This document shows positions 17,846-62,251 of a stretch of 64,000 bases of DNA, one piece after another. Origin of the DNA: Paraspadella gotoi. Lineage: Eukaryota; Animalia; Chaetognatha. How positions within the stretch are numbered: the first letter of the stretch is position 1; the number at the start of each line of letters is the position of its first letter. The position numbers and the translations under genes are program-made. The stretch is from contig CM119268.1 in the NCBI GenBank assembly GCA_051294375.1, positions 3,375,856 to 3,439,855 on the forward strand, given 5' to 3'. A model generated the notes under the pieces. That model did no database searches. It had not been told where the DNA came from and saw only the letters and a program-made list of their open reading frames with translations.

Positions 17846-19660
17846 TTCCCCTCCCCTCTCTCTGTTTTCTTTTCTTTTCGCCTTCGAAATCATTTATTTT
17901 TCCTCCCACCGACAGAGAGAATGGGTCGGGAAGGGGGGGAAGCCAAGGGGTGGTGTGGAGGGGGAGTCGTCTCCGTCGTTTTTCAAGGTTGCGCCGACGC
18001 GAAACTAGGCTAATACGTTATTTTTGTCGAATTGAATGTAAGATGTAACGCAACAACAGCACTAGTTTCTTCTGCCGATTTCACTCGAATTTTAGCGCCA
18101 AAAACAGGAAGATACGTTTTAAAACTTTTTCTCTTTTTTTTCGATTATTATTGTTCCAAGAGATCTGTTGCCAGCTCACCCTTTTGTTATAAGCGAGAAG
18201 AATCATTTACTAAAATGCACAACAGTCGAATCAATTTTAAGATGAAAAATACGATTTGGCTCAGAACTTTTAAATGACAGGGAAGTTGGATTTCTACTCA
18301 AGCCAGAATCTTATTCAAAAAACGTTTCTTCTTTAAAAACTCGAAAGAAAAACAAAGTTAGTTCTCAAAAATGCTCGTTCGGGGCCGCATCTCAACCAAC
18401 GTATAATTTCACCGCCATTTTGATAAGTCATTTAATTTTTTATTTTGGGAAAAAACGATTTTGAATAAGATTAGAAAAAAAACAATTCGGAGCTTTAATT
18501 CTCTTCTTATTAACTTGTAAGTCTCCAATTTTCTATCTATTTGTAAAAATTAATTTTTCAGTTCTTCTCTCTCTCAACCTCCGTTGCCATTTCGACTCTT
18601 GTCCCTTTATGCCATCTCGACTCTTGCCTCTTTATGCCATCTCAACGAATGAAGGATGGATTTTCATCGACCAGAAAAGTCGTCATCAGAAATGCAAATG
18701 CGATTCGTTTATGTCCTCGGGACTCTTAACCCCTTTTCATCCTTTTCATCCCTTTTACTTTCCTCGGGCCGTTCCCTCCCTTTCCATTTTTTACCCTTTT
18801 CATCCCTTTTACTCTCATCGAGCCGTTCCGTCCCTTTCCATTTTTTACCCTTTCATACTTTTTTACTCTCTCGAGCTGTTCCGTCCCTTTCATTTTTTAC
18901 CCTTTTCATCCCTTTCGTCCCTTTTACTTCCCTCAGGCTGAAGAAAATGTTTATTATTTTCTATTATTTCTAAATTTTTAAAACGGGAAATAACAATTCT
19001 GTTTACTATTACTACTATTACTACCAAAAACATTTTTTTCAACGCAAATATTGATTTTCCAAACAAAATTATCTCCACATCAGATCTCCACATCAGATCT
19101 CCACATCAGATCTCCACATGAGATCATCTCTGGATCCTAATCGACTTTTTCACGTCGTTCGTTGACGTCAATCGTCGATAAAACATTTTCTCTTCTTTCA
19201 TGAATCACGTGACTAATAAATCATATTCTCCTTCGCCCCCCCCTTTCCTGCCCCCTTCGCGCCCCCCCCCCCTTCCCTCTCCTCCCTACCTCGTGTTAAA
19301 CCCCCGCGATAGATCATTCCCCCGATATCGCTTCACCATTTCTGGCCCTACAATCTTCGATGGGTGATTTTCACGCGTTCGACTCGTGGATTTATGCCGC
19401 GAGAAAAAATTCCCGATTTCTACTAAAGTCGCTGCGGAACATTTTCGTTCCGGTTGCCGATGGTCGAATCAGAAACCAATATTCTTTGCCTTCGCGCGTT
19501 CTTTGGGATTGAATTAGCCAGCGTATTTGACTCGATTTGAGACTCTGGCCAATGTCTAAGTGGGGCGTTGGTTATTTACTTTGCGCTGTTATTATGTTCT
19601 TATCGAAAACGCGATTTTGAACTAAATATTGCCTTTCTTTCAGTATGTCTTTATTATATT

Positions 19661-21894: not shown

Positions 21895-22141
21895 NNNNNN
21901 NNNNNNNNNNNNNNNNNNNNNNNNNNNNNNNNNNNNNNNNNNNNNNNNNNNNNNNNNNNNNNNNNNNNNNNNNNNNNNNNNNNNNNNNNNNNNNNNNNNN
22001 NNNNNNNNNNNNNNNNNNNNNNNNNNNNNNNNNNNNNNNNNNNNNNNNNNNNNNNNNNNNNNNNNNNNNNNNNNNNNNNNNNNNNNNNNNNNNNNNNNNN
22101 NNNNNNNNNNNNNNNNNNNNNNNNNNNNNNNNNNNNNNNNN

Positions 22142-22173
<32 letters not shown>

Positions 22174-22454
22174 AAACGTAGACGTGAAAGGAAATTCATC
22201 AGTTGCCAAAAACATTCTTCCGCATCCCGTTGTTTTTGTCATCGTTGTTGTTTGTGTCCTTGTCATTTACCCGCGCTATAATCTCACTTAAACTTTGTGG
22301 TATTTTTTTCCACATCTTTGTTATTTTCGTCGTTTTTATCGTCCTCTTTATCGTCGACATCGTCGTCGTCATCTTCATCGTCGTCCGAAAGAAGTAATTC
22401 CAAGGAAGAAATGCGTTTGACTTTTTTCTCAGAATAAAGATGCGTTCCAAGTTT

Positions 22455-22496
<42 letters not shown>

Positions 22497-22809
22497 TCGG
22501 CTTTTTTATATTCCCAATAAATTAAATTTTAATTATTGAATTATTATAAATTACTAAAATATTTTAGTCCTCGTTTTTTTCCCTTTCCTTTTCCCTTACT
22601 TTCCTTTCCTTCCAGAATAGTAATGAATAACAATAACAACGACAAGACCCTTAGAGCATCAGTCGCTTTGTTCGTCGTCTCGTGACCGAAAAGTCTCGGG
22701 TTCGAACCTGAGAAGGAATCTTCGTCTTTCATCGTCGTCGTTTTCGTCTTTTAATCCAAAGGTAACGAGCGACCGACGGTTTCGCCGCTGCGACCGTCAT
22801 CTTTGCTTC

Positions 22810-22843
<34 letters not shown>

Positions 22844-23001
22844 ATCACCTAGGCCCCGCGTCATATTCGACGCGAAATTTCGTCGTTAGTTTTTGCCGTT
22901 TGGCTTCGACCTCGGAAATCGGCGTCGCCGGCGCCGTTTTCGACGCCGGAAATGGGTTTCGCGGCGCCGTTTCCCTTAATTTCCGTCTGGCGTCGTTGCG
23001 A

Positions 23002-23043
<42 letters not shown>

Positions 23044-24060
23044 GTACCCGAGTTTCGAACGAAAGATCAATCGTTGACGAAATATTGGTTTTTTCGTTTT
23101 TGAGAAATTTTGAAACAATTTTGACGCAATACCAAAAAAATAATATAATAATAATATAATTATCCAATTATAAAAAACAATAAATTGACAGACGAAATGT
23201 AACTTATTTTAAACGAACGACATTAATGAATGAATGTTTTTTTTTTTTAAATATTTTACTTTACGAATTTAACCGATACTCAGATACTCCGATGTCAATT
23301 TCTTTATCACTGTTCTGATTCATTTGTTTATCTTTTGTCTACTTCGGTCTCCNNNNNNNNNNNNNNNNNNNNNNNNNGAGAGAGCGAAGACGAGCGGGGG
23401 GAGGGATGGATGAGAGAGAGCGGAAAGAGAAGAACCAGTAAAAGAAAACGGGACGATAGTAAACAGAGTCGTTAATTCATCGAGATAAGATAGAAACAAG
23501 AATCGACAGAAAAAACTTACAGCGACGATAAATAAAAAATAAAAAACAGGAATGAAAAGAGAGAGAGAGATGGACGATCGACGATCAGAGAGAGACCGGA
23601 TGAGATGATGATCTGATGAGAGACAGAGAGAGAGAGAAGAAGAGCATTTGATTCGAGACGAGAGACGAGATGCAAGATCGATGAAGCATCGAGATGAGAG
23701 AGAGATGAGATAATGAGGAGCGTGACGTGGTGCTCTTAGCCTGTTTATGTTGCCCAGGACCTGTCCAATGGTCGCAGTTTCGACCGGTACGTCGCAGTCG
23801 ACGACGAAAGCGAGAAAGAGAGAGAGAGATGACGGAGCGAAGATGAGAGTGACACGAGAGACGAGCGAGATCGAGAGAGAGACGCAGATGAGAGAGTAGA
23901 TGACGATCGAGAGGACGAGAGAGGAGAGATGAGAGAGAGAGAGAATGCTGAATAGTATAGGTTTGTGTGTTGAAATGAAGGGAGAAGCAGTTTTTCCGAA
24001 AAATTTCCAGTTTCAATCACCTCTGCTATATAATTTGTCTCTCTCTCTTCTACTCGTCTC

Positions 24061-24095: not shown

Positions 24096-25011
24096 TCTCT
24101 CTCTCTTCTTCCCTTTCCCTCTCCCTCTCTCGTTTTCTTTCTTCGCCTTCTAAAATCATTTATTTTTTCCTCCCACCGAACCAGAGAGAATGGGCGTCGC
24201 CGGAAGGGGGGCGAAGCTAGAGCGAGTAGGGGGGTGTGGAGGGGGAGTCGTCTCCGTCGTTTTTCAAGGTTGCGCCGACGCGAAACTAGGCTAATACGTT
24301 ATTTTTGTCGAATTCTGAATGAAGATGTAACGCAACAACAGCACTAGTTTCTTCTGCCGATTTCACTCGAATTTTAGCGCCAAAAACAGGAAGATACGTT
24401 TTAAAACTTTTTCTCTTTTTTTTTCGATTATTATTGTTCCAAGAGATCTGTTGCCAGCTCACCCTTTTGTTATAAGCGAGAAGAATCATTTACTAAAATG
24501 CACAACAGTCGAATCAATTTTAAGATGAAAATACGATTTGGCTCAGAACTTTTAAATGACAGGAAGTTGGATTTCTACTCAAGCCAAGAATCTTATTCAA
24601 AAAACGTTTCTTCTTTAAAAACTCGAAGAAAAACAAAGTTAGTTCTCAAAAATGCTCGTTCGGGGCCGCATCTCAACCAACGTATAATTTTCACCGCCAT
24701 TTTGAAAGGTCATTTAAATTTTTATTTTGGGAAAAAAACGATTTTTGAATAAGATTAGAAAAAAAACAATTCGGAGCTTTAATTCTCTTCTTATTAACTT
24801 GTAAGTCTCCAATTTTCTATCTATTTGTAAAAATTAATTTTCAGTTCTTCTCTCTCTCAACCTCGTTGCCATTTCGACTCTTGTCCCTTTATGCCATCTC
24901 GACTCTTGCCTCTTTATGCCATCTCAACGATGAAGGATGGATTTTCATCGACCAGAAAAGTCGTCATCAGAAATGCAAATGCGATTCGTTTATGTCCTCG
25001 GGACTCTTAAC

Positions 25012-25270
25012 CCCTTTTCATCCTTTTCATCCCTTTTACTTTCCTCGGGCCGTTCCCTCCCTTTCCATTTTTTACCCTTTTCATCCCTTTTACTCTCATC
25101 GAGCCGTTCCGTCCCTTTCCATTTTTTACCCTTTTCATACTTTTTACTCTCCTCGAGCTGTTCCGTCCCTTTCCATTTTTTACCCTTTTCATCCTTTTTA
25201 CTCTCATCGAGCCGTTCCGTCCCTTTCCATTTTTTACCCTTTTCATCCCTTTCGTCCCTTTTACTTCCCT
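25012..25270 (+). repeat. ~54 bp minisatellite (also at 18730-18930 and 38360-38740, with different copy number)
   Basis: Recurrent ttttacccttttcatcc…ttttactctcatcgagccgttccgtccctttccat. Confidence 0.8.
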
Positions 25271-27324
25271 CAGGCTGAAGAAAATGTTTATTATTTTCTA
25301 TTATTTTCTAAATTTTTAAAACGGGAAATAACAATTCTGTTTACTATTACTACTATTACTTACCAAAAACATTTTTTCAACGCAAATTTGATTTTCCAAA
25401 CAAAATTATCTCCACATCAGATCTCCACATCAGATCTCCACATCAGATCTCCACATGAGATCATCTCTGGATCCTAATCGACTTTTTCACGTCGTTCGTT
25501 GACGTCAATCGTCGATAAAACATTTTCTCTTCTTCATGAATCACGTGACTAATAAATCATATTCTCCNNNNNNNNNNNNNNNNNNNNNNNNNACCTTCGC
25601 CCCCCCCCTTTTCCTGTCCCCCTTCGCCCCCCGCCCCCTCCGCCTCTGCCTCTCCTACCTCGTGTTAAACCCCGCTGATTCAGACATTGCCCCCCCGATA
25701 TAGCTTCACCATTCCCTGCCCTACAATCTTCGCAATGAGGTCGACTTATCACGCGTTCGACCTCGTGATTTAATGCCCGCGAGTCAAAACATTCCCGATT
25801 TCTACGTTAAAAGTCGCTGCGCCGAACATTTTACGTTTCAGCCGGATTGCCGATGCGTACGATAATCAAGAAACCTAATATTCTTTGCCACTCGTCGCGT
25901 GCGTTCGTGGAGAGTCTTGAATTAGCCAGTCAGATTTGACGTACGATGAGACTACTTGGCCAATGCTCTAAGTGCGGGCGTTTGGTTAGTTTACTTTACA
26001 GCGCTGCTTATATGATTCTTATTCTGAAAACGGCGATTTTGACTAAATATTGCCTTTCTTCAGTATGTCTTTTATTATATTTAAACAAAACATTAATAAA
26101 CTTTAAAATTTTTTTTTTTTAAATTTTTTCCCCAATGAACTCTTTTTTCAATTATATCTACACGGATACAGCGTACTCTCTTCTTTTCTTCGATGGGTGA
26201 TTTTCACGCGTTCGACTCGTGATTTATGCCGCGAGAAAAATTCCCGATTTCTACTAAAGTCGCTGCGGAACATTTTCGTTCCGGTTGCCGATGGTCGAAT
26301 CAGAAACCAATATTCTTTGCCTTCGCGCGTTCGTGGGATTGAATTAGCCAGCGTATTTGACTCGATTGAGACTCTGGCCAATGTCTAAGTGGGGCGTTGG
26401 TTATTTACTTTGCGCTGTTATTATGTTCTTATCGAAAACGCGATTTTGACTAAATATTGCCTTTCTTCAGTATGTCTTTATTATATTTAAACAAAAATTA
26501 ATAAACTTTAAAATATTTTTTTTTTAAATTTTTCCCCAATGAACTCTTTTTTTCAATTTATCTTCACACGATACAGCTATCCCCTTAAACTCAAGTTCTT
26601 TTATTCCCTCCGCGAAGAACGAACCGACGTTAAGGGGACCATCGCCAACGACTTTTCTCTTCTATATTAGATAATTTTCGGGTCATTTTGTTTGCGATTC
26701 CAGCAGTAACTTGGAGGAATGCCATTATTGATGATGCTCTCTTTTGATGAGGCCAGCTTTGATGATGCCATCTTTTAATGACGCCATCTTTAACGATGCC
26801 TGATTAATTCAGGGTCATTATTCATCTTCAGTTTTGAAGACCGATTCTCTCTTCAGTTTGTCAACGAAGACTTTTTTCGATTTTTCTCCCTGAAAAAAAA
26901 ATAAGAAAATCTTGAATGATTTCCTTTATTTAATTTGACGTACTAAAAACATTTTAAAAAATTATATATTTCTTTTACTTTTATTTATTTATTNNNNNNN
27001 NNNNNNNNNNNNNNNNNNNNNNNNNNNNNNNNNNNNNNNNNNNNNNNNNNNNNNNNNNNNNNNNNNNNNNNNNNNNNNNNNNNNNNNNNNNNNNNNNNNN
27101 NNNNNNNNNNNNNNNNNNNNNNNNNNNNNNNNNNNNNNNNNNNNNNNNNNNNNNNNNNNNNNNNNNNNNNNNNNNNNNNNNNNNNNNCCAGCGACGACGC
27201 CCCTCATACTTCACGGCGAAAAAATCTCTCGGAGCGCGTATATTCGGTCTTTCCCTCTGAGCCTTGACTGATTGAGTGATTGATCGCAAACGCCCTTCTC
27301 ATCCTTTTGCTTCTCTTCTCGTCT

Positions 27325-47575: not shown

Positions 47576-47758
47576 CGCCGATCTTTGCCTGTGAAACGAT
47601 TATGATCAAGTGGCAAAGTGACGAGGTTTTCGGCCGAAAGAAAGCCACGAGAAAGCGACTCGAACCTACTGAAAATACTGGTCCAAAAAGGTCAACTAAG
47701 ATGACCGAAAAAAAAAGAGCATAGACGAGATAACGAAATATTTGATCCCTTCCACCAG

Positions 47759-47870
47759 GAGAATCTCCTCAACCGCGTCCCGACTTCCGCTTTGTCGAGA
47801 CTCAGTCACCTCGAGAATTTGACCCTCGACACGAATCTCATCATCGAGATCAACAACGAAGCCTTTGCAG
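47759..47870 (+). CDS. LRR gene exon (ENLLNRVPTSALSRLSHLENLTLDTNLIIEINNEAFA)
   Basis: tccaccag acceptor, GCAG|gttgac donor, phase 0/1, LRR consensus. Confidence 0.9.
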
Positions 47871-48199
47871 GTTGACATTCATTGATTGCTTGATTGATTG
47901 ATTGGTTTTGTATGGTTTAATTTGATTTGATTGATTTGATTTGTTTGATTCCATGACCGATGAATTTATTGGATTTTTTTAAATCTGGTTTTGTCAGTTG
48001 ATTGATTGATTGATTGATTGATTAATTTTTTGCCTTTTCTGATATAAAAGTCCCGACAGGAAACAGGATCTCCATCGGGCATTGTTCTAGAATCCTTCGC
48101 TGGTCATCGACCTTGGTGCCTTTCCGCCGTCTCTCCTTTCTTGATGAGGAGGCTCTTCTATTTTCTCCTCATCCATTTTCTTTTCTCCTTTTTCTTTTA

Positions 48200-49150
48200 G
48201 TTTTCTATCTCCTTTTTTTTTTCTTCCTTTTTTCCTAACTCCTTTTAATTTCCTTTCCTCTTTTCTCCTTCTATCTCCTTATCTTTTTCTTCCTTTTTTC
48301 CTATCTCCTTTTAATTTCCTTTCCTCTCTTCTCCTTCTATCTCCTTTTCTTTTTTCTTCCTTTTTTCCCATCTTCTTTTAATTTCCCTTTCCTCTTTTCT
48401 CCTTCTATCTCCTTATCTTTTTTCTTCCTTTTTTCCTATCTCCTTTTAATTTCCTTTCCTCTCTTCTCCTTCTATCTCCTAATCTTTTTTCTTCCTTTTT
48501 TCCTATCTCCTTTTAATTTCCTTTCCTCTCTTCTCCTTCTATCTCCTAATCTTTTTTCTTCCTTTTTTCCTATCTCCTTTTAATTTTCTTTCTTCTCCTT
48601 CGAGCTCCTTATCTTTTTTCTTCCTTTTTTCCCATCTCCTTTTAATTTCCCTTTCCTCTCTTCTCCTTTTATCTCCTTATCTTTTTTCTTCCTTTTATCC
48701 TCTCTCCTTTTAATTTCCCTTTCCTCTCTTCTCCTTCTATCTCCTAATCTTTTTTCTTCCTTTTTTCCTCTCTCCTTTTAATTTCCTTTCCTCTCTTCTC
48801 CTTCTATCTCCTTATCTTTTTTCTTCCTTTTTTCCTCTCTCCTTTTAATTTCCTTTCCTCTCTTCTCCTTCTATCTCCTTATCTTTTTTCTTCCTTTTTT
48901 CCCATCTCCTTTTAATTTCCTTTCCTCTCTTCTCCTTTTATCTCCTAATCTTTTTTCTTCCTTTTTTCCCATCTCCTTTTAATTTCCCTTTCCTCTCTTC
49001 TCCTTCTATCTCCTTATCTTTTTTCTTCCTTTTTTCGTCTCTCCTTTTAATTTCCTTTCCTCTCTTCTCCTTCTATCTCCTTATCTTTTTTCTTCCTTTT
49101 TTCCTCTCTCCTTTTAATTTCCTTTCCTCTCTTCTCCTTCTATCTCCTTC
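48200..49150 (+). repeat. Polypyrimidine minisatellite, ~67 bp unit, ~14 copies
   Basis: Recurrent ctccttttaatttcctttcctctcttctccttctatctccttatcttttttcttccttttttcc. Confidence 0.85.
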
Positions 49151-49424
49151 TCTTTCCTCATTTTAACCTTGTTTTTCATCGCGAGAGAGTGAAAGCCATT
49201 ATGATCGAGCGACCGACCGACCGACTGTTAAGGAACAAGACGTCATTATATCGTCTTGTTGTGGCTCGAATTACCAGTCTTCCCTTTCTCTCTTTTTCTC
49301 TTCCTTCTCTTTTTATTTTTATTATTTTTTGTTTTATTCTCTATTTTTTAACGACCATGAACAATTAATTAGTGAGTATATTTTGTTTTTTATATATTTA
49401 ATAGTTTTTTTTTCATTTAACCAG

Positions 49425-49495
49425 GACTTACGCGGTTGAAGTTCGTTTCCCTTTGGTTCAATCAGATGCAGAGGATCACGGATCGCGCGTTCCAG
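49425..49495 (+). CDS. LRR gene exon (GLTRLKFVSLWFNQMQRITDRAFQ)
   Basis: taaccag acceptor and CAG|gtaaga donor; phase 1/0 matches both neighbours. Confidence 0.9.
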
Positions 49496-50215
49496 GTAAG
49501 AATCAGGCCTTTTCTCACTTTTATCAATGTGTAAAAAGTTAAAGATACATTAAAAAATACATTTCTTATTTAAAATCGCAAAGTGGTTTTTGACACTTTA
49601 ATACATTCGCGAAAAGAGAAACCAGATTGTCGGCTTTTGACGCTTGTAATACATATCAATGAACACTGGAGGGATAACAATGAAGACGACGACGACGACG
49701 ACGACGACGACGACAACGACGACGACGACGTTAAAAACAGCAAGGTTGACATCGAAAAGAACGACTAAGACGAGGTCGACTTAAAAATCGGCGGAAAAAG
49801 AAAACGACAAAAACGACGACGAAAACAACGACAATAAAAAAACGCCGCCGACAATAACGACAACGATTATGACAAAAAAAGACAAGAACAACGACGAAAG
49901 CGACGACGATCACGACGGCAAAGAAAAGGACGAAAGCGGGGACAACGACGATAACAACGACAACGACAAAAGGCGACAACAACAGAGGATTAATACTTTT
50001 CTATAAAAATGTTGATGCATACGATTTGATTGATGACGGTCATAAAAAGCTTCCAGTTTTCAACAAAACATAAACAAGAGAAAAAAAAACAAGAGCGGGG
50101 AAACTGAGAATAAAAAAAAAAAAGTCGCGTCGAAATTTTGTTTCTGTGAATAAATCGATAGAAAAATATGTGACGTGTACAAGGATGTAAACAATGGAGG
50201 GAGGGAGAGAGAGAG

Positions 50216-50289
<74 letters not shown>

Positions 50290-50838
50290 AGAAGGAAGAA
50301 TGGAATTCAACTATTTAGAAACAAACTTTTATTGATATTCACTATTTGTTTATAATAATAATCAAGATAATTCTGTGGAGAAAGATTTAGAGATACGACC
50401 ACCAGTTTAAACTGAAGCCTTACGTTTTATTTATGGCTTTTTTTAATTTATTTTTTTTAAATTAAGTGTGATGAGTGATAACATTTGTTTAATGGCCTTT
50501 AATGACTCTTGGTTTCCTGCCTTAACGAATGACGGCATCCGTGCAGTGGCATCTGTGCTGTAGCATCTGCGCATTGTGCGCAACGGCATCTGTGGTCACG
50601 GCGCGATGGCACGGAACTCGTTTCCATTTTAAACAAATCCTATTTGGCGGGAAGAGAGAGAAAAAAATCGGGAGATGAAAAATCACTGGACTGTGACTCA
50701 TTAAATTCTCTTTCCAACGACGAGACTTTATAGCGAAAATTTGGGGCGCGTCGAATTATCGCCTGCCTGCCTGCCTGCCTGCCTTCCTTCCTTCCTTCCT
50801 TCCTACCTTCCTTCCTTCCTTCCTTCCTTCCTTCCTTC

Positions 50839-50912
<74 letters not shown>

Positions 50913-50980
50913 ATCTTCTGTCTCTCTTTCTTTCCTTTATTTCACATTTCGTCACATTTATTCTCATTTCTCCCACTCAG

Positions 50981-51105
50981 GGTTTGGAATATTCCCTCAT
51001 CCATCTCGGACTCCAATACAACAAATTGCAGAATGACGACGTGTTGGCCATCGGAAAACTTAAACATTTGGAGGAACTCAAATTGGGTTTTAACCAAGTC
51101 TCAAG
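50981..51105 (+). CDS. LRR gene exon (GLEYSLIHLGLQYNKLQNDDVLAIGKLKHLEELKLGFNQVS)
   Basis: cactcag acceptor, AG|gtagac donor, phase 0/2. Confidence 0.92.
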
Positions 51106-51355
51106 GTAGACTTTTAATCTGAGATTAAACAATTTTAAATATAATATTATGAGGTATAATTTGAGATTAATCTTTTTTTTTATTTCACAATATTTCACAT
51201 AAAGTGTGATCCGAGATAAGATAATATACAATGTTTTGATTCGAGATTAATCGTATCTATTTTTTAAACAATATTTCACACATAGATTATTTTCAAATTC
51301 TGTTTTTGAACTTTGCTCTCTCAACTCTTGCCCTTCTCTCTCTCTCCTCGCCAAG

Positions 51356-51568
51356 TTTCCCGTACAACATGTTCAAAAACATGGTTCACCTCAAATACTT
51401 GAACCTTGAGCAAAACCACGTGGAGGTGCTGTCGAACGAGACCTTCCGCGGTCTCGAGGGATCCCTGGAGACCCTCATCATCAGCAAGAACAAACTCTAC
51501 GACATCCAAGGTTCTCCCTTCAAGAGATTCTTCAAACTCAAGCGACTCTTCATCGATCAGAACGACAA
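51356..51568 (+). CDS. LRR gene exon (FPYNMFKNMVHLKYLNLEQNHVEVLSNETFRGLEGSLETLIISKNKLYDIQGSPFKRFFKLKRLFIDQND)
   Basis: ccaag acceptor, AA|gtgggt donor, phase 2/2, three LRR units. Confidence 0.92.
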
Positions 51569-51970
51569 GTGGGTTTATATTGTGTGTGTGTGTGTGTTTG
51601 TGTGTGTGTGCTGGTGTGTTTGTGTGTGTGGTGTGTTTGTGTGTGTATGTGTTATGTGTGTGTGGTTTGTTGTGTGTGTGTTTGTGTGTGTGTGTGTGTA
51701 TTATTTCTTTGATTTAGTCGCAGCTAGATAAGTTCGTCTAACGTTCTGTCTGTCTGTCTGTACGTTTGTCTGTCTCTCCATGGATATTATATTGAAGAAA
51801 GTAAGATAGAAAGAGAAAAAAACTATGTGGGAAACACGTTCCATTGTCTAACTCACGTATTTTAATTCTTCTAGTTCTAGGTGATGTACTACAGTACAGT
51901 TAGTCTCCACGTACTGTATAATTTTAATTTCTATAAAATTTCTTTCTTCCCTCCCCCCTCCCCGTGGCAG

Positions 51971-52190
51971 ACCCAACAAAGCCCCCCCTGGCGCGGAACT
52001 CAGGTTCACCCTCGAAACCATCAAGGGTCTCGAGTTCAACCTTGAGACCCTGAGTCTTCAGGCGATGCGGCTTCAGTCGAGCGACCTCTTGGCCATCGGC
52101 AAGTTGAGGATGTTGAAGGGGCTGCATCTCTGCGAGAATCACATCGGGATCATCCCCTTTGGAGTCTTCAAGGAGTTGAAGCATCTCAAG
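51971..52190 (+). CDS. LRR gene exon (PNKAPPGAELRFTLETIKGLEFNLETLSLQAMRLQSSDLLAIGKLRMLKGLHLCENHIGIIPFGVFKELKHLK)
   Basis: gtggcag acceptor, AAG|gtgggt donor, phase 2/0, open frame. Confidence 0.92.
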
Positions 52191-52502
52191 GTGGGTCTAT
52201 GGAAGGGGGTTAGTTTTGGATAGTGGAAGGGGGATGTCAAGGAGTCGCTGGTTGAGTAGAAAAAGTCCGTAAAATAATAAATAAAAAAATATTATTATTG
52301 GTTTCGGAGTCATGATTTGTTTTTAAAGAATTTAGATTAATTTTAGTCTGGCATTGTTGATAATCATTTGTTTTCATCTTTATATGTCAATCTAGCTCCT
52401 TTCTTCGCACCTTTGATCATTGCTGATTTTAAAAATAAACCATGACACCAAATCTTACTTCCTCCCGTCCTCTCTCTCTCTCTCTCTCTCTTTCCTCTCT
52501 CT

Positions 52503-53249: not shown

Positions 53250-53399
53250 ACAATCAACTGAACTGCGACTGTCGACTCGCTTGGCTCCGCGAGAGAATGG
53301 ATTACGGTTCCACGGAATTCCGAATCGCGGCTCGGGAGTGGCAATGTCAGAAGCCGGCAGAGTTCCAGGGCCGTACCCTTTACACCATGACTTATTCGG
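53250..53399 (+). CDS. LRR C-terminal cap exon (DNQLNCDCRLAWLRERM…WQCQKPAEFQGRTLYTMTYS)
   Basis: ccccag acceptor and G|gtaagt donor; classic LRRCT NxxxCDCxLxWL…CxxPxxxxG motif. Confidence 0.93.
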
Positions 53400-53409
53400 G
53401 TAAGTTGAG

Positions 53410-53608: not shown

Positions 53609-54531
53609 TTGAGTCGCCTCTTCATTCCAAAGTTGAGTAAAGATCGAGCGAGAACTTCTCTTGAATTCCAAAAATGTTAAATAATATTCCCGGCCTAAAA
53701 TTCCATTCCCTTTCATTCTCATAACAAGTAGTTCTTATAAAAGGCAATGTAATTTATTTCTTCACGCATTCATCGGATGTTTTATTTAAAAATAAACTCC
53801 CGGTCATTTCTCTTTTTGGTGTCGAATTCTTATTACTAAAAATTCAGTCCTCCACTTGAATATAGAATGTACTCTATTCACCGTTTTAATTTCAAAATGA
53901 CTACGAAAATAGGGTTAAATTAAAATACGACTTACGAATTATCTCAACTATTTTGATAACAGTTGCAGTCTCTGGTCTCTGACGATAATTTTTAATTGTA
54001 AAGTATAGTATAGTATACGTAAGAACAAGTTTGAGCAAACAATGTCGGATCTGCTCACGATCATTAGCAGTAATTATATAATAAATTAAATTATTTGATC
54101 TGAAATGTTTGTTTTTGGGTCTTTTCGTCACTGACCATGACAAAAGCAACTACGACGATGATGGCGACGACGACAATAACGATTGACTTGATTAATTGAT
54201 TGTTTGATTAATTGATTAATTGATTAATTATTTGATTGATTGATTAAATAATTAATTAATAAATAAATGGATTGATTGAATAATTAATTAATAGATAAAT
54301 AAAGTGATTGCTTAAATAATTAATTGATTGATTAATTGACTAATTAATTGATTGATTAATTAACTAATTGATTACTTAACTAATTAATTATTTGATTAAT
54401 TAATACATCTTGTATTTACATTTACATATAAAAAGAAAAAGAAGCATAATCAAAAATATCAAAAGAGAAAGAAAATCAAAAATCATATTTAAAAATAAAC
54501 GTTTTAAAAATGTCGAACATTCACCTAATTA

Positions 54532-55182
54532 CACGGATTTCAAATGGGAGTGAAATTAAAATACCAAAATAATTTGTTATAGCAACTTCAGATTTTGCAT
54601 TCTGACGTTTTTTTTATTTTTCAACTCCTAGTCATCGAGCTTTTCTTACTTTCTTATTTATGTGTTCATCAATGGCAAGGTCGAATTTCAAAAAAATAAA
54701 TTTGGTTCATATTATAGATATAAACATTGGAGTATGAGCCTGAGAAATCAGAATGTCAAAAGCTTTTTCACAACCACAATGACAGCCTTTTTAATTTATA
54801 ATTTTTTTAGTTAAAACTTATAGAAAATAAAAGTTTCAATATTTTTAAAAAAATGGAAAAGAACAAGGATCTGGCAACAGCCTGTTTGTTGCTTCGCTAA
54901 ACATTGAAATATATTAATAAGAATTTTTTTACATGCTCTCAAGATATTATTTTAAAAGAATATAAAAGAAATTAAAAAATTCGACTCATTTTTTTTCACA
55001 ATCAGTTTAAAATGGAAGGCAAGCGCACTAGTTGCTATGATGTAAAGTATTATCAATTTTGCTATATAGAAACATAAACATCAAGGAATCTTCTAACTAA
55101 TGAGATGAACAAATATGAATCACATTCTGTCAGTTAAGAGTTATTACAATTCTTTTCATTTCACTCCCATTTAAAATCCGTG
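54532..55182. mobile_element. MITE with ~27 bp TIRs and flanking TA
   Basis: ta|CACGGATTTCAAATGGGAGTGAAAT … ATTTCACTCCCATTTAAAATCCGTG|ta, one mismatch; AT-rich non-coding interior. Confidence 0.75.
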
Positions 55183-55360
55183 TATAAAGTAGATAAAAAT
55201 TTTCAATTTACTTTTTTTGTTCTACATATTTTTATTTTCTGCATCCTAGCCGGCACCCGAACTTTTGATTAAATTATTATATAATTTAGAGTCATGATGC
55301 GATAATCCTTTCTTTTTCGTTGTTTATTGGTATTGAATTTTTAACAACGATTTTTAATTA

Positions 55361-55410
55361 ATAGTTGAACATGTTTCGGCTTGTTTACTTCAAGCCTTCA
55401 TCAGCATATG
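55361..55410 (-). ncRNA. Minimal type I hammerhead ribozyme motif (Penelope-like element type)
   Basis: Minus strand reads CTGATGA-A-GGCTTG-aagtaaa-CAAGCC-GAAAC-AT-GTT: intact catalytic core, perfect 6 bp stem II and palindromic ACATGT stem III. Stem I pairing is weak. Confidence 0.75.
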
Positions 55411-55448
55411 ACATTCAATAATAAATTTTGTGTAAAAGAAGAGTGTGT

Positions 55449-55479
<31 letters not shown>

Positions 55480-55587
55480 GGTAAAGGTTTTTCCAACAAA
55501 GTGGTGAGACAGAATAGTGGTCAGATGTGAGGACAGGTTGAAGGTGAGGGCAGATTGAGTGAGTTGTGAAAAGAAGTGAAACTTGTT

Positions 55588-55629
<42 letters not shown>

Positions 55630-55744
55630 AACAACAGAGATAAATAAATAATAAAGATACATTTTTGCAATGTACAACAAAGATAAAGGAGTTTGAAAAA
55701 CTAATATTGGTGAAATTTAACATTTAACTAATAATTAATAATTT

Positions 55745-55812
55745 AGAGTCGAAACATGTCAGTTTTTTCTTTCTTCTGAAATAAAAACAATCGTTGTTGA
55801 AATAAAAATTTT
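55745..55812 (+). repeat. 3' half of the same hammerhead/pLTR motif, ~80 bp past the XK-like stop codon
   Basis: gagtcGAAACATGTCagttttt…aaataaaaacaATCGTTGTTGaaataaaaatt matches the 58361-58410 segment; the CTGANGA half is not recognisable. Confidence 0.5.
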
Positions 55813-55891
55813 CAAACTCTTTCTAAATATTATTTAAGGAAAAACTCATGGATATTCTAATATATTCAATATTTTAATATAAGCTATATGT

Positions 55892-58300
55892 TCAGGCAGA
55901 AAATAAGTAAAACACTGGAACCAAAGTTAAAAGTCTATATATAACGTTCAAAATACCAGTATGACTGTCAGCGACAATTGTTAAACCCTGCAAAAGTTGA
56001 CTAAAGTTCATTTTCCTTATATAATCAAGAGAAACGTATCTGGATTTTGTTTCGGTGCACTGTGTGAAAATTATATCTAAAGCTTTGAAAGGAATTGTTT
56101 CGGGAAATATCAAATGGACGCTTCTTTTATGTCGCAAATTAAATTCGAGCCAAAAAGCCGAAGGGAGAAAGTAAAACCGATGAACTAATTGGGTAGAAAA
56201 TGAAAACTCTTTAAAATTGTATGGATCCTCGTACGATCTAATTGAGAAACAAATGAACACGAGAATGAAGATAAACGAGGAAAATATTTTAAAAATTTCG
56301 AAATTTATGGCACGTTTAATTTTACTCAGAATCCAAAGGATTATAAATAAACTCGGAGAAATTAAGATAAAGATAAAAATTTTAAAATGATCTTTTAAAT
56401 ATAGATATAGAATTATATGACGATGAAAAGAAGACCATAAGTCATAAGAATTGTATTGAGACGTCAAGTGACACGAATTTCTGAATTTTATCAAAAGATA
56501 AATTGAATCGTAATTTTTGTTTTCATTGGCGAAAAAGGCTGTTATTATAAAAGTAGAAAACACAATTGTGATTTTTATAATCTTATTAATGTGTCGTTTA
56601 AAAAATACTAATAACGCAGACAGAATGCAAAAAATGCTAAAATCAGTTATCAATTTCCCGAAATAAAACGTATGATGCTGAATAATCTTCATGGTATCAT
56701 ATTGTTTTTCTGAATAACAATATCGACAGCTATGCATGCTTCCAATTTTTTCCATATTCCGTTCATAAATAAGAGCAAATTCTAAATTTATTAGGAGAAC
56801 TCCAATGCAGGAAATAATTGACATGACGGAAAACAATGGCGTCTTCTGTTTGAAAAATATCTTGATAGCGTACGCTAAGCCTAAAGCTAAGTCGGTTGTC
56901 ACTATGATAAGTAAAGTGGAATATTTCTGCAGAAAAAGAAAATAATTTCCCGTTAAAATAATCGAAACACTTTTGTACGAAGCAAACCCTTTTTTCTCAA
57001 ACGATAAGAGTTTAGCACAGATTTCATTTCCAACCGAATCGAAATACGAAAGATTCTTAAGGTTTAATAACGGCTTCCTCATAAAAACTTTGATCAATTG
57101 TTTATTTCTTCCCGTTATAGCAACGCACTCTTTATAACCTGCAGTTTTCGTTACTTTTCCATCGAGGGTGTAAAGTAAAATGATCGGTGAGTCCAATATT
57201 CCGAATTTAATCACCCTGAAGTCGTGATAAAATTCTCCGTGACTCGGAATCAAATTGTAAAAGTTGAGTTTTTCAAACATGAAAAAAAATGACATCAAAA
57301 AGTAGCTGAGAATCAGAGAGTTAAAGACGCCTTTGTTTGCAAAGCATTTCCTTCTCCTTTCATTTTCTCCTTCGTTTTCATTTCGAAAATCCGACAATAT
57401 CCCCTTAGCTAATTTACCTATTTCTCGGGGCATTAAAACCCTGAACAATAGGGCCAACGAAAAAATGCCGAAATAACTGGATATTTTGATGCTGTACGTA
57501 AAAATGAAATAAAAAGTGGTGGTGAGCCCTATACAACCCTGTATCACGCCCATGATCAGTCGGACTTTGTCCGCACGTCCGGTTATTGTGGAGAGAAGGT
57601 ACTCTCTGTAATTGGCCGCCGCGTGGGCGAGACTCAGCGACGACGTGACGATTGATACAATGATCATATAATCGTCGCTCGGCCAAGAGCAAATCTCCAC
57701 GTTTTCACCCAATAATTTCTTTTCGGCGTAAAAGTGACACGTGCAAGGAATTCCCCTGTCTTCAATGTCGTTGTTTTCAATCACATCGTGAATCGTGTAA
57801 TTGTTGTTGTTGTGCAAGCAAATTCTCGTCGAGAGCGTGAGCAGATTGAAACCCATGGCGAAGGATTGCAACACCAATTGCGGAAAGGATTCCACGAAGC
57901 AATTGATCAGCGACAATTTCATCAGCAGATTCTCCTTGAACACTTTTCTCTCCGCCATCGCTTCTGGAAATCGCAAGTCGTCCAAATGCAAATCGATGGA
58001 AAATGGAATCGGCCCGAGACCGAAAGCGAGGCAGAGGGCGGTGACGATTTTCGCCCATGATTTTGAGGTCAGTCGGTCGTAGTAGCGACCCTTCGACCGG
58101 ACGACGAGAAATCCGTACGTACCGGAAACGATTTGGTGAAGGAGGGAAATTCCGACGATGGCCTTCCCGACGAACCGGACGTAGAGGTCACGTGATTTCA
58201 AGTATTTGATTCCGGTGTTGATGTCCGTGAAAATGTCGAAGAATTGCAAACATATCGTGACTACGAGCGTCAAAGAATGGAGACTGAATTGGGGCTTCAT
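55892..58300 (-). CDS. Intronless XK-related (Xkr/CED-8 family-like) multi-pass membrane protein, 802 aa, nested antisense in an LRR-gene intron
   Basis: Uninterrupted ATG-to-stop ORF. XK-family-like motifs FDIFTDI..G.KY, FVESFPQLVLQ (cf. LESxPQLxLQ) and SIVTSSLSLAHAAANY, with many hydrophobic segments. Family assignment is by motif recognition only. Confidence 0.8.
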   Translation of the reverse strand: MKPQFSLHSLTLVVTICLQFFDIFTDINTGIKYLKSRDLYVRFVGKAIVGISLLHQIVSGTYGFLVVRSKGRYYDRLTSKSWAKIVTALCLAFGLGPIPFSIDLHLDDLRFPEAMAERKVFKENLLMKLSLINCFVESFPQLVLQSFAMGFNLLTLSTRICLHNNNNYTIHDVIENNDIEDRGIPCTCHFYAEKKLLGENVEICSWPSDDYMIIVSIVTSSLSLAHAAANYREYLLSTITGRADKVRLIMGVIQGCIGLTTTFYFIFTYSIKISSYFGIFSLALLFRVLMPREIGKLAKGILSDFRNENEGENERRRKCFANKGVFNSLILSYFLMSFFFMFEKLNFYNLIPSHGEFYHDFRVIKFGILDSPIILLYTLDGKVTKTAGYKECVAITGRNKQLIKVFMRKPLLNLKNLSYFDSVGNEICAKLLSFEKKGFASYKSVSIILTGNYFLFLQKYSTLLIIVTTDLALGLAYAIKIFFKQKTPLFSVMSIISCIGVLLINLEFALIYERNMEKIGSMHSCRYCYSEKQYDTMKIIQHHTFYFGKLITDFSIFCILSALLVFFKRHINKIIKITIVFSTFIITAFFANENKNYDSIYLLIKFRNSCHLTSQYNSYDLWSSFHRHIILYLYLKDHFKIFIFILISPSLFIILWILSKIKRAINFEIFKIFSSFIFILVFICFSIRSYEDPYNFKEFSFSTQLVHRFYFLPSAFWLEFNLRHKRSVHLIFPETIPFKALDIIFTQCTETKSRYVSLDYIRKMNFSQLLQGLTIVADSHTGILNVIYRLLTLVPVFYLFSA

Positions 58301-58329
58301 TTTACTACAATTTTTAGTTTTAAGTTTTT

Positions 58330-58400
58330 ACAAGCGCGGATGAAGGCTCGAATCAAAGCCGAAACATGTCCCGTCCTTGTAAATAAATCGTTGTTGTAAT
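58330..58400 (+). ncRNA. Degenerate hammerhead/pLTR motif 30 bp upstream of the XK-like ATG
   Basis: acaagcgcgGATGAAGGCT-cgaatcaa-AGCCGAAACATGTC-ccgtccttgt-aaataaatcgttgttg. Same stem II/III and downstream ATCGTTGTT tail as the 55361 copy, but the CTG of the core is altered. Confidence 0.6.
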
Positions 58401-59381
58401 AAATTATTTTCGCATTAAAAGCAAATGTTAAATTGTGAATTGTTTTTCACGTATCTGCGTCTTCTGATATTTTTGCGATGTTCCTTACCTTTTTCTCACT
58501 AATTCGTTATTAATTTTGTACAAATAAATGTCGCCCGTTGCTCTTTTGTTCGCCACCAAGGAAACCTCACGTCTGGACTTTGGATATGACGAACAAAAGA
58601 GGACAGAGAAGATTCGTCAGACGATGAGGGAAACAGAAATGGTGATTCGAATTGGACGAAGGTAGACGATGAAAGATATTGAGTATTGTTCGAATATTGA
58701 GCTATTTTTAGAATTAAAAACAGACTAAGATGCGCAAAAAAATTGGTAGACTACTGAAACCTGGGAAATAAACACGTTCAAACAAACAGATCAAACAAAC
58801 ATACTTTTAAGAGTCATTTTACGAAAAAAAAAGGGAATCACGCAAACTACGTCGCCTGCCGTAATCTAAATCTCGACGTCGCTTAGCAACGGGCACCGAA
58901 GAAGAAATCAACAAGGACGGCCGAAGATGATTGCGAAATTGATTACGATAACTTTATGCGGCTGATTTGACAAATACGAAATTGCCAATCTGATCGGCGA
59001 GGATGATGATGATGATGGGATCGAAGATTGTCGCGCGCGATTAAAAATGGCGACGACGAAGATCCAGTCCATCGCATTTTCGAGATGTTCATTCTCTTTA
59101 ATTTATATGTTTTGAGCCGATTTGCGGAAACAATTTACTCGTTGTTATTTTAATGTCAGCCGATCGACGGGAATAGGCTCTCGATGTGGTTCGACTGCAT
59201 TTTATTTGTAAATTTCTGTCAATATATACACTAATAATACAATTATTGACGTTAAATTCTCGATAGATTAATGGTGCTTGAAAAAACTTAAATTACTCTC
59301 AAATTGGTGAACTCTACTCGGAAAAAAATGATCAAGAAAAATGGATGCGGGATACCAGATTGAAATCGCTCAATCCTCTTT

Positions 59382-59418
<37 letters not shown>

Positions 59419-60613
59419 ACCGCGATTAGGGTTGTATCTTGTTGAGTTTCAGGCGATTAAAATAAAATAAAATAAAAATAAAAATTCAAACAAGCCAACA
59501 TTTGTATACTTTGTATAAAAAAAGTGCTAAAAGGTAAAAAAAATAATTGAATTTAAAAACAGTGACTTTGAAAATGAAACTCCATTTTAAAATCCAACTT
59601 TCTCCACTTATTGTCAAGGCATATCTTGACTTGTTCAATATCAAATTTGAACACATAAACGATTTTGGTATTTTCTACTCAACTAACTTTTTAAAAATCA
59701 ATAGAAATACCACTGGTTAGCAACAGCGTACCGGCGGGAAAGCACCATGATATTAATATACCAATTACATACCATATTGTTATATACCTCTCCTTCTCTT
59801 GTCGTTCGGCTTTCAACGACGTATAACCAAGCCTCCTTCTTTTTAAAAGTCAAGAGAAATAGTACGGTTTACTGTTCTCTTAGCGATGAGACGCGAATTG
59901 ATGTAGACACCCCTGCTTCGTTGTTCACGAAGAGATTCCGATGCAATAGTGAGAACGTGGGTGAGTTGAACAGATCTCTGAGCTCGAGTCTTCATTGATC
60001 CTCTTCTGAGACTTTCTCTCTATCTGCTCCTCTTCCGACTCTGCGCCGTTCTTCTGACTCTCTCTCTTTCTTTCTCTCTCTTTCTCTCCCCTTCCGTCTC
60101 GTCTCTCTTCTGCATACTCTATTTCTTCTCTCTCTCTGCAGTCTGAGCATCCTGAGTGCGTCTCTAGCTCTATTCTCTCTCCTCTCGTCGTCTGCTACTC
60201 TTCTCCTCTGCGCAGTTGGACTCCGAGAAGAGGCGTTTGAGATGTTTCTCTTTTGATCTGTTTTCTGTTCTTCTGTCCCAACCCCAACCCGAGCTACCCG
60301 ACTATTTCCAACCCGACTATTTCCTTGAGCGTTTTAAACCAAATTATGAGTGGACTGAATCATCCGACTACTTTATTCATGGCATCTTTCACCCTCGTTT
60401 CTCGCTCTGTCTCCGGCCTCTTCGGCCCCCTTTCAATCTCCCTCCTTGGCCACCTCCTGTCCCTCACCTTTCCACCCTCCTCTCTCCTCCTCCCTTCTCT
60501 CTCCCCCTGCCCTCTTCTCTCCCTCTCTCCCTCCTCCCCTTACCTCCCTCTCTCCCTCCTCTCCCTCCCCTCTCTCTTCCTCCTTCCCTCCCTCTCTCCC
60601 TTCCCCACCCCAG

Positions 60614-60854
60614 ACTTCGTGTGCACGGATCCGTCGTGAAACACGACTGCACCGAATTTACGTGGCTCCACTCAGCGGCGCTTCGACGACGACGACGAGG
60701 GACGACGGGCGACGACGACGACGGACGACGATTCCGGCGTCACTTGGCGCCGGGAGACGGGAGGAGACGGCCGCGCCGGGGACACGGCGACGGTGACGGT
60801 GCCGACGTCGTTGACGACGTCCCGACGGCCAACGACCCGACGTTTCACATTAAG
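60614..60854 (+). CDS. Exon completing LRRCT (DFVCTDP…C) plus Thr-rich stalk; contains indels
   Basis: acccccag-type acceptor; phase 1 supplies the last LRRCT Cys (DFVC). Downstream peptides KHDCTEFTWL, TTTT… and DDVPTANDPTFHIK lie in shifted frames. Donor AAG|gtccga is approximate. Confidence 0.7.
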
Positions 60855-61249
60855 GTCCGAAGCGTAGGAGAGAGGGGCGGGGCTGTGAGGGTGAGGTGAA
60901 GGGAGAGCGGGCAGGTGGGAGTGAAATGTTAAATGTTAAAGTGTATGTAATGTGAAAAGTGGAAAAGAGAATAAGTCTAAAGTCTAAAATATTTAGTCTC
61001 AGGCTGAAATCTGAAATCTAAACCAAAGGAAAATTTAAAATTAAAGTAAAAAGTATAAAACCGCAAATTGGTAAATGTATAACAAAATGTGCTTAAAAAT
61101 TATTTATACATTGTGGAAACGCTTTCCATTTACGAGAAACACTAACGATTTTAAACTCTCAACTTCTCCCTGCTTCCCGCACGCTTATCCTGCCCGGCCC
61201 CCCCCTTCCCCACTCTTTTTCCCACACCCCCTCCCCACATCACACCCAG

Positions 61250-61382
61250 ATGACGGGACGTGACGCCCAGACGCGTGACGGTCCAATGGGTCGTCGGTTC
61301 CGACGAAGACGTCGACTCTTTCGCGAGTCCAACATCGACTCTTCAAAAACGACACCTACATGACGAGTCCGAAGCTTCACAA
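61250..61382 (+). CDS. FN3 domain exon 1 (…DVTPRRVTVQWVVGSDEDVDSF/RVQHRLFKNDTYMTSPKLH)
   Basis: cacccag acceptor and AA|gtgagc donor; FN3 pattern VTxxxxxVxW…FxVQxR recovered with one indel. Confidence 0.78.
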
Positions 61383-61401
61383 GTGAGCGTCTGCGTCCTC
61401 T

Positions 61402-61493
<92 letters not shown>

Positions 61494-61588
61494 TGTGGTC
61501 AACTTCCTACGTGAAAAAAAGGGGGCGTTGCCAACTTATTTTGGCTTTGCTATTTTTTTTTCATTAATCAATTCAACGTATGTGTTAT

Positions 61589-61628
<40 letters not shown>

Positions 61629-61645
61629 TATCTATCTATCATATC

Positions 61646-61688
<43 letters not shown>

Positions 61689-61839
61689 AAGGATTTTTTT
61701 AATCCCTCTATCCATCCATCCATTAAACCCTCCATCCATCTATCCATCCATCCCTTTATCCATCCATCTATCCATCCATCCATTCATCCTTCCATCCCTC
61801 CATCCTTCCATCCATCCCTCTCCCATTTCCTTCCTCCAG

Positions 61840-62005
61840 TCGCATTCGAAAGTACCACATTCAGCCGCTCAAAGAGGACAGCGACTACATCGTCTGCGTG
61901 GTTCTGCGCCAAGTCTCCACGCGACACGAGAAGAAGAGGTGCACCGACGTGTCGACCACATCCATCACCAGCACCCACACTGGACCCACGGATCAGGAGA
62001 CCACG
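61840..62005 (+). CDS. FN3 domain exon 2 ([55 protein letters not shown])
   Basis: cctccag acceptor, ACG|gtgaga donor, phase 2/0. LxxxxxYxVCV…C is typical of the FN3 domains of LRR-FN3 surface proteins (FLRT/LRFN-like). Confidence 0.88.
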
Positions 62006-62251
62006 GTGAGAGGGACTGTGGGGATTTTTTTTAAAAAAAAGTGCGATAGAAAAGAACTGTGTCAAGCCTCTAGTGGCTTGGTGAACCTGGACAATGCGCG
62101 CAATAGGTTTAATTGAATTAAAAAATTTGAGCAAACAATGTCGGATCTGCCCACGATCATTAGCAGTAATTAATTGATTAATTAAGAAGAGAAACAGAAA
62201 GAGATAGAGAGAAAGAGTGTGAGAGAAGAGAGAGAAAGAGAGAGAGAGAGA

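What the first reader, a model, noticed from the sequence alone, without database searches (positions are those of the whole stretch)
55340..58410. Intronless XK-related gene bracketed by Penelope-type hammerhead ribozyme repeats: candidate ribozyme-bounded mobile cargo gene
Seen: the 802 aa intronless ORF (58300-55892, -) sits between two co-oriented + strand copies of a motif GAAACATGTC…AATAAA…ATCGTTGTTG. One starts ~30 bp upstream of the ATG (58330-58400, with GATGAAGGCT…AGCC stem II) and the other ~80 bp beyond the stop (55745-55812). A third copy in inverted orientation, with an intact core, lies at 55410-55340. I saw no other copy of this exact motif in the window. Known: minimal hammerheads with a palindromic stem III mark the pseudo-LTRs of Penelope-like elements (PLEs) and retrozymes, PLE insertions often show direct plus inverted pLTR copies, and PLE machinery can move pLTR-flanked sequence in trans. 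Inference: a host-derived Xkr-like gene was captured and retro-mobilised as a non-autonomous PLE unit into this intron. That would explain the lack of introns in a genome whose neighbouring gene has many small exons.
Basis: partly seen in the sequence, partly recalled or inferred. Interest (0 to 1): 0.82.

Follow-up and report, generated by a model that had tools for sequence, protein, structure and literature searches.

The report
XK gene between dead Penelope hammerheads
An intact, intron-free membrane-protein gene of the XK (lipid scramblase) type lies in one copy inside another gene's intron between two broken leftovers of a common self-cutting RNA motif, which are likely the worn ends of an old jumping-gene event that brought it there; the third motif belongs to a separate, likely later insertion, and nothing seen suggests the gene still moves.

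Summary
The ORF (802 aa, 58300-55892, minus strand) and the three motifs are real and not chance. XK kinship is indirect: no Pfam hit, but its only credible homologues are Pfam XK proteins and its N-terminal model ranks XKR8/9/4 first. It lies antisense in an intron of an LRR gene. Copy C sits in its own 444-bp high-copy element with a perfect 13-bp target duplication, inserted against copy B. A has a core change (U4G), B lacks the 5' half of the ribozyme. The motif family is abundant (order 100-1000 times unique depth), while the ORF is single-copy, present in all four runs laid, and less polymorphic than its flank. No target duplication was found round B..A. A and B still bracket the ORF tightly, co-oriented, which uniform chance rarely gives. 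Best reading (0.45): fossil of an old Penelope-type gene capture, as described in Adineta vaga; independent remnants 0.35. No genome was held, so parent gene, helper element and empty site are untested. The scan has noted hammerhead-bracketed cargo and intronless XK genes on other DNA, never together in my look-ups.

The parts
55892..58300 (-). Intronless 802-aa ORF, divergent XK-related membrane protein; 15 hydrophobic segments; XK-like N-terminal ~160 aa, C-terminal part unassigned
58327..58411 (+). Copy A: minimal-hammerhead remnant; core word at 58337-58343 with U4G, 4-bp stem II, GAAAC at 58361, bulged stem I, family block 58386-58411; member of an abundant family
55751..55839 (+). Copy B: 3' half of the motif only (GAAAC, palindrome, family block 55789-55813); few close relatives; right end approximate
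55294..55737 (-). Separate ~444-bp high-copy non-coding element with GA/CT microsatellites, carrying copy C
55343..55404 (-). Copy C: hammerhead with CUGAUGA core and 6-bp stem II, changed cleavage-site base and weak stem I
55281..55293 (+). Left 13-bp target-site duplication of element C
55738..55750 (+). Right 13-bp target-site duplication of element C, abutting the GAAAC of copy B
53250..53400 (+). Host gene exon with an LRR C-terminal cap-like peptide (read by eye; no Pfam hit); donor at 53401 opens the intron that holds the XK gene
47705..52220 (+). Upstream small exons of the host gene with LRR_8 hits (3 of 11 window frames scanned hit LRR families)
60615..62008 (+). Likely downstream host exons (end of the cap, FN3-like peptides), read by eye; no Pfam hit; frames not clean

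Best explanation
This is a single-copy XK-type membrane-protein gene sitting antisense in an intron of an LRR gene, and the two broken hammerhead remnants that bracket it (B and A) are likely the decayed terminal repeats of an old Penelope-type event that would have copied the gene into this intron; copy C lies in a separate, likely younger insertion. Steps: (1) shown: ORF intact, unique depth, less variable than its flank; A and B co-oriented at 26 and 78 nt from the ORF ends; C in its own element with a 13-bp duplication. (2) inferred: an RNA of the form repeat-gene-repeat was reverse-transcribed in trans by a Penelope-type RT/endonuclease, as for the Adineta NRPS gene. (3) inferred: the gene became a fixed resident, probably transcribed from the CpG-rich DNA at or beyond A; the repeats decayed and neither is predicted to cut. 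(4) inferred: a younger family member later inserted at B's stem II/core junction. The protein likely works like an XKR lipid scramblase or a scramblase-like scaffold (untested).
For: Only three family motifs in 64 kb, all within 3.1 kb. Under uniform densities of 1 per 20, 50 or 100 kb the chance that a given gene is bracketed this tightly and co-oriented is 1.9e-5, 3e-6, 7.5e-7, i.e. 0.4, 0.06, 0.015 cases per 20,000 genes (densities assumed, not measured). A aligns better with B (score 42.5, 48 of 77 columns; a 26-nt block at 88%) than with C (35.5), B-C 25.5. Three independent homologue clusters all stop resembling each other after QCFPS, each followed by K or E, which fits a GT(A/G)AG donor; the window ORF reads through there (inferred from protein only). 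Precedent of trans-mobilisation between pLTRs (PMC3846280). Residence and constraint: one unbranched 2,656-nt contig at depth 89.6 across the ORF in X2 against 85-104 downstream; 13 differences in 2,324 nt of ORF-covering pieces against 14 in 643 nt of flank in X5, p 0.0005.
Against: No target duplication round B..A: only AT-rich 7-9-mers that do not abut the ends, none with one mismatch left of 55264. A and B differ strongly (62% of columns, a 12-nt length difference), unlike sibling repeats unless very old; B's spacer looks more like C's relatives than like A. C landed exactly on B, so this family can cluster on its own, which weakens the uniform-chance figure. The family is abundant: summed depth about 125-240 times unique at A and 950-1,800 times at C (not copy numbers). 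The precedent kept its introns. GC3 falls from 0.67 to 0.27-0.31 along the ORF in step with the flanks, which fits long residence by any route. No helper element or parent gene could be looked for.
Confidence: 0.45

Rival explanations
1. The gene is an ordinary old nested single-exon XK gene (for example a LINE-made retrocopy), and A, B and C are three independent remnants of a very abundant Penelope-type family that landed in the AT-rich DNA next to it.
For: C is shown to be independent. Family abundance. A and B only 62% alike, no shared target duplication. Most min-HHRs occur as single scattered remnants (PMC4209133). A purified PLE prefers AT-rich DNA (PMC11167929). Notes on other genomes report intronless XK genes without hammerheads (unchecked).
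Against: Tight, co-oriented bracket at both ends and no other family copy in the remaining 61 kb; A-B is the best-scoring pair.
Confidence: 0.35
2. Only A came with the gene: a Penelope-type protein primed on both target strands, copying the spliced XK mRNA on one and a short repeat RNA (A) on the other, giving a head-to-head fusion; B was an older remnant that served as the landing site, as it did again for C.
For: The geometry fits: the XK 3' end points left, A's 3' end points right, and their 5' ends meet 26 nt from the ATG. It explains antisense orientation, likely intron loss and the A-B difference together. A purified PLE cleaves and extends both strands (PMC11167929). C's insertion on B shows B can be a target.
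Against: No poly(A) remnant or target duplication recognisable; use of a host mRNA as second template was not found in the passages read; entirely inferred.
Confidence: 0.13
3. C, B, the ORF and A form one recently mobile, ribozyme-bounded cargo element with copies elsewhere.
For: The inverted-direct-gene-direct layout matches the Adineta case on its face.
Against: C has its own 13-bp duplication and sharp high-copy borders (0 of 1000 simulations reach 13 nt). ORF at unique depth at 80% likeness; present in 4 of 4 runs laid, patchily in the low-depth X9. A has U4G, B has no 5' half.
Confidence: 0.04

Closest known systems
pLTR-mediated capture of an NRPS gene by Pen3a in Adineta vaga (Arkhipova et al. 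2013, PMC3846280; parts 2 and 3 of 5 and passages read)
   Same: A host protein gene between two co-oriented Penelope-type terminal repeats, no transposon ORF inside, an inverted repeat nearby.
   Different: There: 8-bp duplication round the whole unit, empty allele found, gene kept all introns, member of a 50-copy family. Here: no duplication round the unit, no empty allele seen, inverted copy is a separate insertion, gene intronless, single-copy, antisense to the repeats, repeats decayed.
Minimal hammerheads of metazoan Penelope-like elements (Cervera and de la Pena 2014, PMC4209133; parts 1 and 2 of 4 read)
   Same: Extra base between positions 9 and 10.1, G10.1-C11.1 pair, palindromic stem III, short or weak stem I, large scattered families, pairs in opposite strands within 100-700 bp.
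   Different: A has U4G, B is half a motif, C has a changed cleavage base; no link to an RT ORF could be tested.
XKR8, XKR9, XKR4 / Pfam PF09815 (PDB 8xej, 7p16, 9boj)
   Same: N-terminal ~155 residues fold alike (Z 10.4, 10.2, 9.9; rmsd 3.8-4.1 A over 130-147 residues); homologues carry PF09815.
   Different: 802 aa with 15 hydrophobic segments, 12-16% identity, no direct Pfam hit, residues 340-802 without a usable hit.
Metazoan non-LTR retrozymes (Li, Clavereau, Pollet 2026, 10.64898/2026.07.22.740005; part 1 of 5 read)
   Same: Element C is a short non-coding high-copy repeat with a type I hammerhead; one X2 contig shows a head-to-tail return within it (55403 to 55294).
   Different: Here a single unit with a target duplication; no tandem of complete hammerheads; retrozymes carry no protein gene.

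Membership tests
XK-related (PF09815) | Direct match to the Pfam profile at gathering score | tested here: not met
   0 families at E<=1
XK-related (PF09815) | Sequence homology to PF09815 proteins | tested here: met
   3 of 4 phmmer hits (E 6.5e-8 to 3.7e-4) are PF09815 above cut-off; the fourth is a tandem-repeat artefact; hhalign 98.1%, E 6.9e-14 over 170 columns; Atlas top hit 0.90 XK-related 16% of members, recognition low
XK-related (PF09815) | N-terminal XKR helical fold | tested here: met
   XKR8, XKR9, XKR4 are ranks 1-3 of 48,161 chains, Z 10.4-9.9, next 8.3; caveat: Z under 13 for helical bundles, model pLDDT 59, Foldseek E only 0.47
XK-related (PF09815) | Second half of the XK fold in the C-terminal part | tested here: inconclusive
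   Full-length model pLDDT 37; Atlas blank for 340-802
XK-related (PF09815) | Lipid scrambling activity | not testable with these tools
   needs expression and assay
Penelope-type minimal hammerhead | Core CUGANGA ... GAAA round a stem II | tested here: met
   Met by copy C only; A has U4G; B lacks the 5' half
Penelope-type minimal hammerhead | Extra base 9/10.1, G10.1-C11.1 pair, palindromic stem III | tested here: met
   A and C show all three; B shows the palindrome (features from PMC4209133)
Penelope-type minimal hammerhead | Stem I closing on the cleavage site | tested here: inconclusive
   A: 8-bp distal stem with bulges, z -3.0; C: weak, z -1.0; B: z 0.25
Penelope-type minimal hammerhead | Self-cleavage (dimer or protein-assisted) | not testable with these tools
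   bench test
Penelope-like element pLTR | Same repeat flanks an RT + GIY-YIG ORF elsewhere in the genome | not testable with these tools
   no genome held; pattern scans of viral and metagenome contigs blank
pLTR-captured gene (Adineta type) | Two co-oriented repeats of one family round the gene | tested here: inconclusive
   Co-oriented and related, but only 48 of 77 columns identical
pLTR-captured gene (Adineta type) | Inverted repeat as part of the same insertion | tested here: not met
   C has its own borders and 13-bp duplication
pLTR-captured gene (Adineta type) | Target-site duplication round the whole unit | tested here: not met
   none abutting the ends; may have decayed
pLTR-captured gene (Adineta type) | Empty allele or empty orthologous site | tested here: inconclusive
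   No such joint among 15 of 66 joints shown or the 6 listed; low-depth runs have holes
Non-LTR retrozyme | Two or more consecutive tandem units with complete hammerheads | tested here: not met
   one complete core in the window

The most novel reading that the evidence does not exclude
A functional, conserved animal gene made by Penelope-type machinery from a spliced RNA: the cargo lies antisense between the two repeats and has lost an intron that its relatives keep, so the template would have been the strand opposite to the hammerhead. That would make Penelope elements a source of true retrogenes and would bear on the open question of which strand they copy.
Probability: 0.15. Interest if true: 0.62.

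Novelty: new member of a known kind. Interest (0 to 1): 0.32.

Why it matters
If the capture reading holds, this is a second animal case of a whole protein gene moved between Penelope terminal repeats, and one that stayed intact and constrained. Penelope elements are said to keep introns, and an antisense template was proposed to explain this (PMC3846280), while a purified element copied an RNA that carries the hammerhead (PMC11167929). An antisense, intron-lost cargo would test that directly. If the remnants are independent, the finding is an ordinary nested gene in a transposon-rich intron, with a mildly unusual double-length XK protein.

Tried and rejected
Whole-genome search: no genome held. 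Word-index protein searches found nothing three times; one search missed proteins known to be in the collection, so these blanks carry no weight. Best phmmer hit P0001 is a tandem-repeat translation and was dropped. PDB by sequence: 0 hits for A1, 3 unrelated hits at E 0.5-1.3 for A3. Foldseek: no match at E<=0.001; XKR8 at rank 35, E 0.47, probability 0.89. Single-sequence fold useless. Related loci in metagenomes: 202 pattern matches, none confirmed. Hammerhead pattern: 0 in viral and metagenome contigs. No RNA holder listed; X9 is only guessed RNA and patchy, not used for expression. The idea that B's 5' half lies left of element C: no core word found. The idea that B begins with a Penelope-type 5' palindrome: a hairpin forms across the in-silico empty site, but 60 of 1000 shuffles do as well; dropped. 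pN/pS 0.21 (4 synonymous, 3 non-synonymous, p 0.045) rests on 7 coding differences from a cut table (8 of 13 differences in those two X5 pieces were listed), so it is a hint only. The other ATCGTTGTT hits (15609, 22241, 34604) belong to other repeats. No data on U4G itself: the two hits in PMC7151607 are core numbering; PMC3088659 says most core changes cut activity sharply and that U4C keeps some in vivo. Literature: (listings only) showed no paper joining XK genes with Penelope or hammerheads; 'xk-related' scored 0 in all 25 listed of 45, in all 20 listed of 783. Supplements were not opened; those of PMC4209133 may hold this hammerhead family.
Full report
Observation. The window holds one long real-looking ORF, 802 aa at 58300-55892 on the minus strand. 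Three copies of a motif family lie at 58361 (+, copy A), 55751 (+, copy B) and 55377 (-, copy C). No other copy occurs in the window even with one mismatch per block, and 40 simulated windows gave 0 exact matches. A descriptor scan gave 3 hammerhead-like hits in the window: C (CUGAUGA, 6-bp stem II), A (CGGAUGA, 4-bp stem II) and one unrelated purine-rich hit at 1729. B has only the 3' half. Rfam listed no hammerhead among 26 matches in the window; on a short stretch C scored 15 bits to Hammerhead_3 against a cut-off of 48.5, A nothing. A and C do show the marks given for Penelope-type minimal hammerheads: an extra base after A9, a G10.1-C11.1 pair and a palindromic stem III (PMC4209133, parts 1-2 read).

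The protein. Pfam gives no hit and three word-index searches were blank. HMMER over 1.84 billion representatives gave 4 hits: one tandem-repeat artefact and three unnamed proteins matching residues 9-119, all PF09815 XK-related above the cut-off. Their profile matches residues 11-180 at 98.1%, E 6.9e-14. A model of residues 1-267 (pLDDT 59) ranks XKR8, XKR9 and XKR4 first among 48,161 chains (Z 10.4, 10.2, 9.9; next 8.3), with the tool's caveat on helical bundles. The Atlas agrees weakly. Residues 340-802 stay unassigned. The protein has 15 hydrophobic segments. The three homologue clusters diverge right after QCFPS, each followed by K or E, which fits read-through into an intron at a GT(A/G)AG donor; this is inferred from protein alone. 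The window ORF runs through that point.

Setting. Small plus-strand exons upstream hit LRR families (3 of 11 window frames scanned). A cap-like exon ends at a donor at 53401, and likely downstream exons start near 60615 (read by eye). The XK gene is therefore nested antisense in an intron of about 7 kb. That the host is an animal is inferred from this gene structure and the XK family.

Copy number. No genome is held, so I laid public contigs (9 runs listed; 6 laid). At 80% likeness the ORF has depth 218-274 in X1 and 89.6 on one unbranched 2,656-nt contig in X2, like the unique DNA downstream (122-263; 85-104). The motifs are repeats: summed depth about 125-240 times unique at A's core and 950-1,800 times at C's. 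These sums are not copy numbers but set the order of magnitude. B reaches only 3-7 times; being half a motif, it is harder to lay on. In X5, from another study, ORF-covering pieces differ at 13 of 2,324 nt and the flank at 14 of 643 nt (p 0.0005). GC3 falls from 0.67 to about 0.3 along the ORF in step with its surroundings. This is the picture of a fixed, constrained resident gene.

Copy C is a separate insertion. In X2, depth is 100-380 up to 55293, 42,014 from 55294, and falls to about 300 after 55735; X5, X6 and X7 show the same left step. The borders are flanked by a perfect 13-bp direct repeat at 55281-55293 and 55738-55750; 0 of 1000 simulations reached 13 nt. The right repeat abuts B's GAAAC. 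C differs from nearly all relatives at the cleavage-site base and has a weak stem I. So the inverted-plus-direct triad is two events, not one.

Do A and B belong to the gene? [quoted passage not shown] Against: no duplication round B..A; A and B share only 48 of 77 columns; C's landing on B shows the family clusters; no empty site appeared among the joints shown (15 of 66, 6). I put an old capture between B and A at 0.45, independent remnants at 0.35, an A-only two-template event at 0.13, and a still-mobile unit at 0.04.

Introns and strand. The Adineta cargo kept its introns, so Penelope transport does not by itself explain an intronless gene. Here the hammerhead strand is antisense to the XK mRNA. 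Arkhipova et al. proposed an antisense template to explain intron retention; under that model an antisense cargo would be spliced. A purified element copied an RNA spanning the pLTR-ORF junction that carries the hammerhead, and extended both target strands (PMC11167929, section 3 part 1 and passages). This is the only point of real novelty, and it depends on two unproven steps: capture, and intron loss at that time.

Other reading: PMC8557442 (passages), PMC6431247 (passages), the 2026 retrozyme preprint (part 1 of 5), PMC3088659 and PMC7151607 (passages). Earlier notes of this scan: none on this place or sequence; several hammerhead-bracketed candidates in other genomes that broke up into separate insertions and intronless XK genes elsewhere; these are unchecked and were not used as support.

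Verdict. Observation partly confirmed; interpretation partly supported. At best a new, decayed member of a known kind (pLTR-assisted gene capture); otherwise an ordinary nested gene. Interest 0.32.

Noticed in passing
window 54530-55184: A 655-bp high-copy element with 32-bp terminal inverted repeats (94% alike) and TA at both ends, MITE-like; relatives show many internal deletions.
   Followed up: partly
window 55294-55737: Element C family: very high depth (up to about 5,000 times unique in one bin), GA microsatellites inside, and one contig returning from 55403 to 55294, which suggests head-to-tail partial tandems elsewhere.
   Followed up: partly
window 55343-55404, 55751-55839, 58327-58411: The two copies on the host pre-mRNA strand are crippled (A, B); the one with an intact core word (C) is antisense to the host and sense to the XK gene, about 490 nt past its stop. 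Three cases only.
   Followed up: no
window 55892-57280: The C-terminal 460 residues of the XK protein, with a soluble stretch near 345-460 and about eight more hydrophobic segments, match nothing; the protein is about twice the length of the solved XKR chains.
   Followed up: partly
window 60615-60860 and 61245-61382: Likely host exons do not stay in one frame; possible assembly indels or a decaying gene.
   Followed up: no
window about 15450-16550 and 22140-23200; 18465-18970 and 24990-25480: Long duplicated non-coding blocks, seen as near-identical translations and flanks.
   Followed up: no
window 54024-54089 and 62120-62185: A 66-nt direct repeat (89%) 8.1 kb apart.
   Followed up: no
window 56000-60000: CpG observed/expected is 1.1-2.2 over the XK gene and its upstream DNA, against 0.6-0.9 over 54400-56000.
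   Followed up: no
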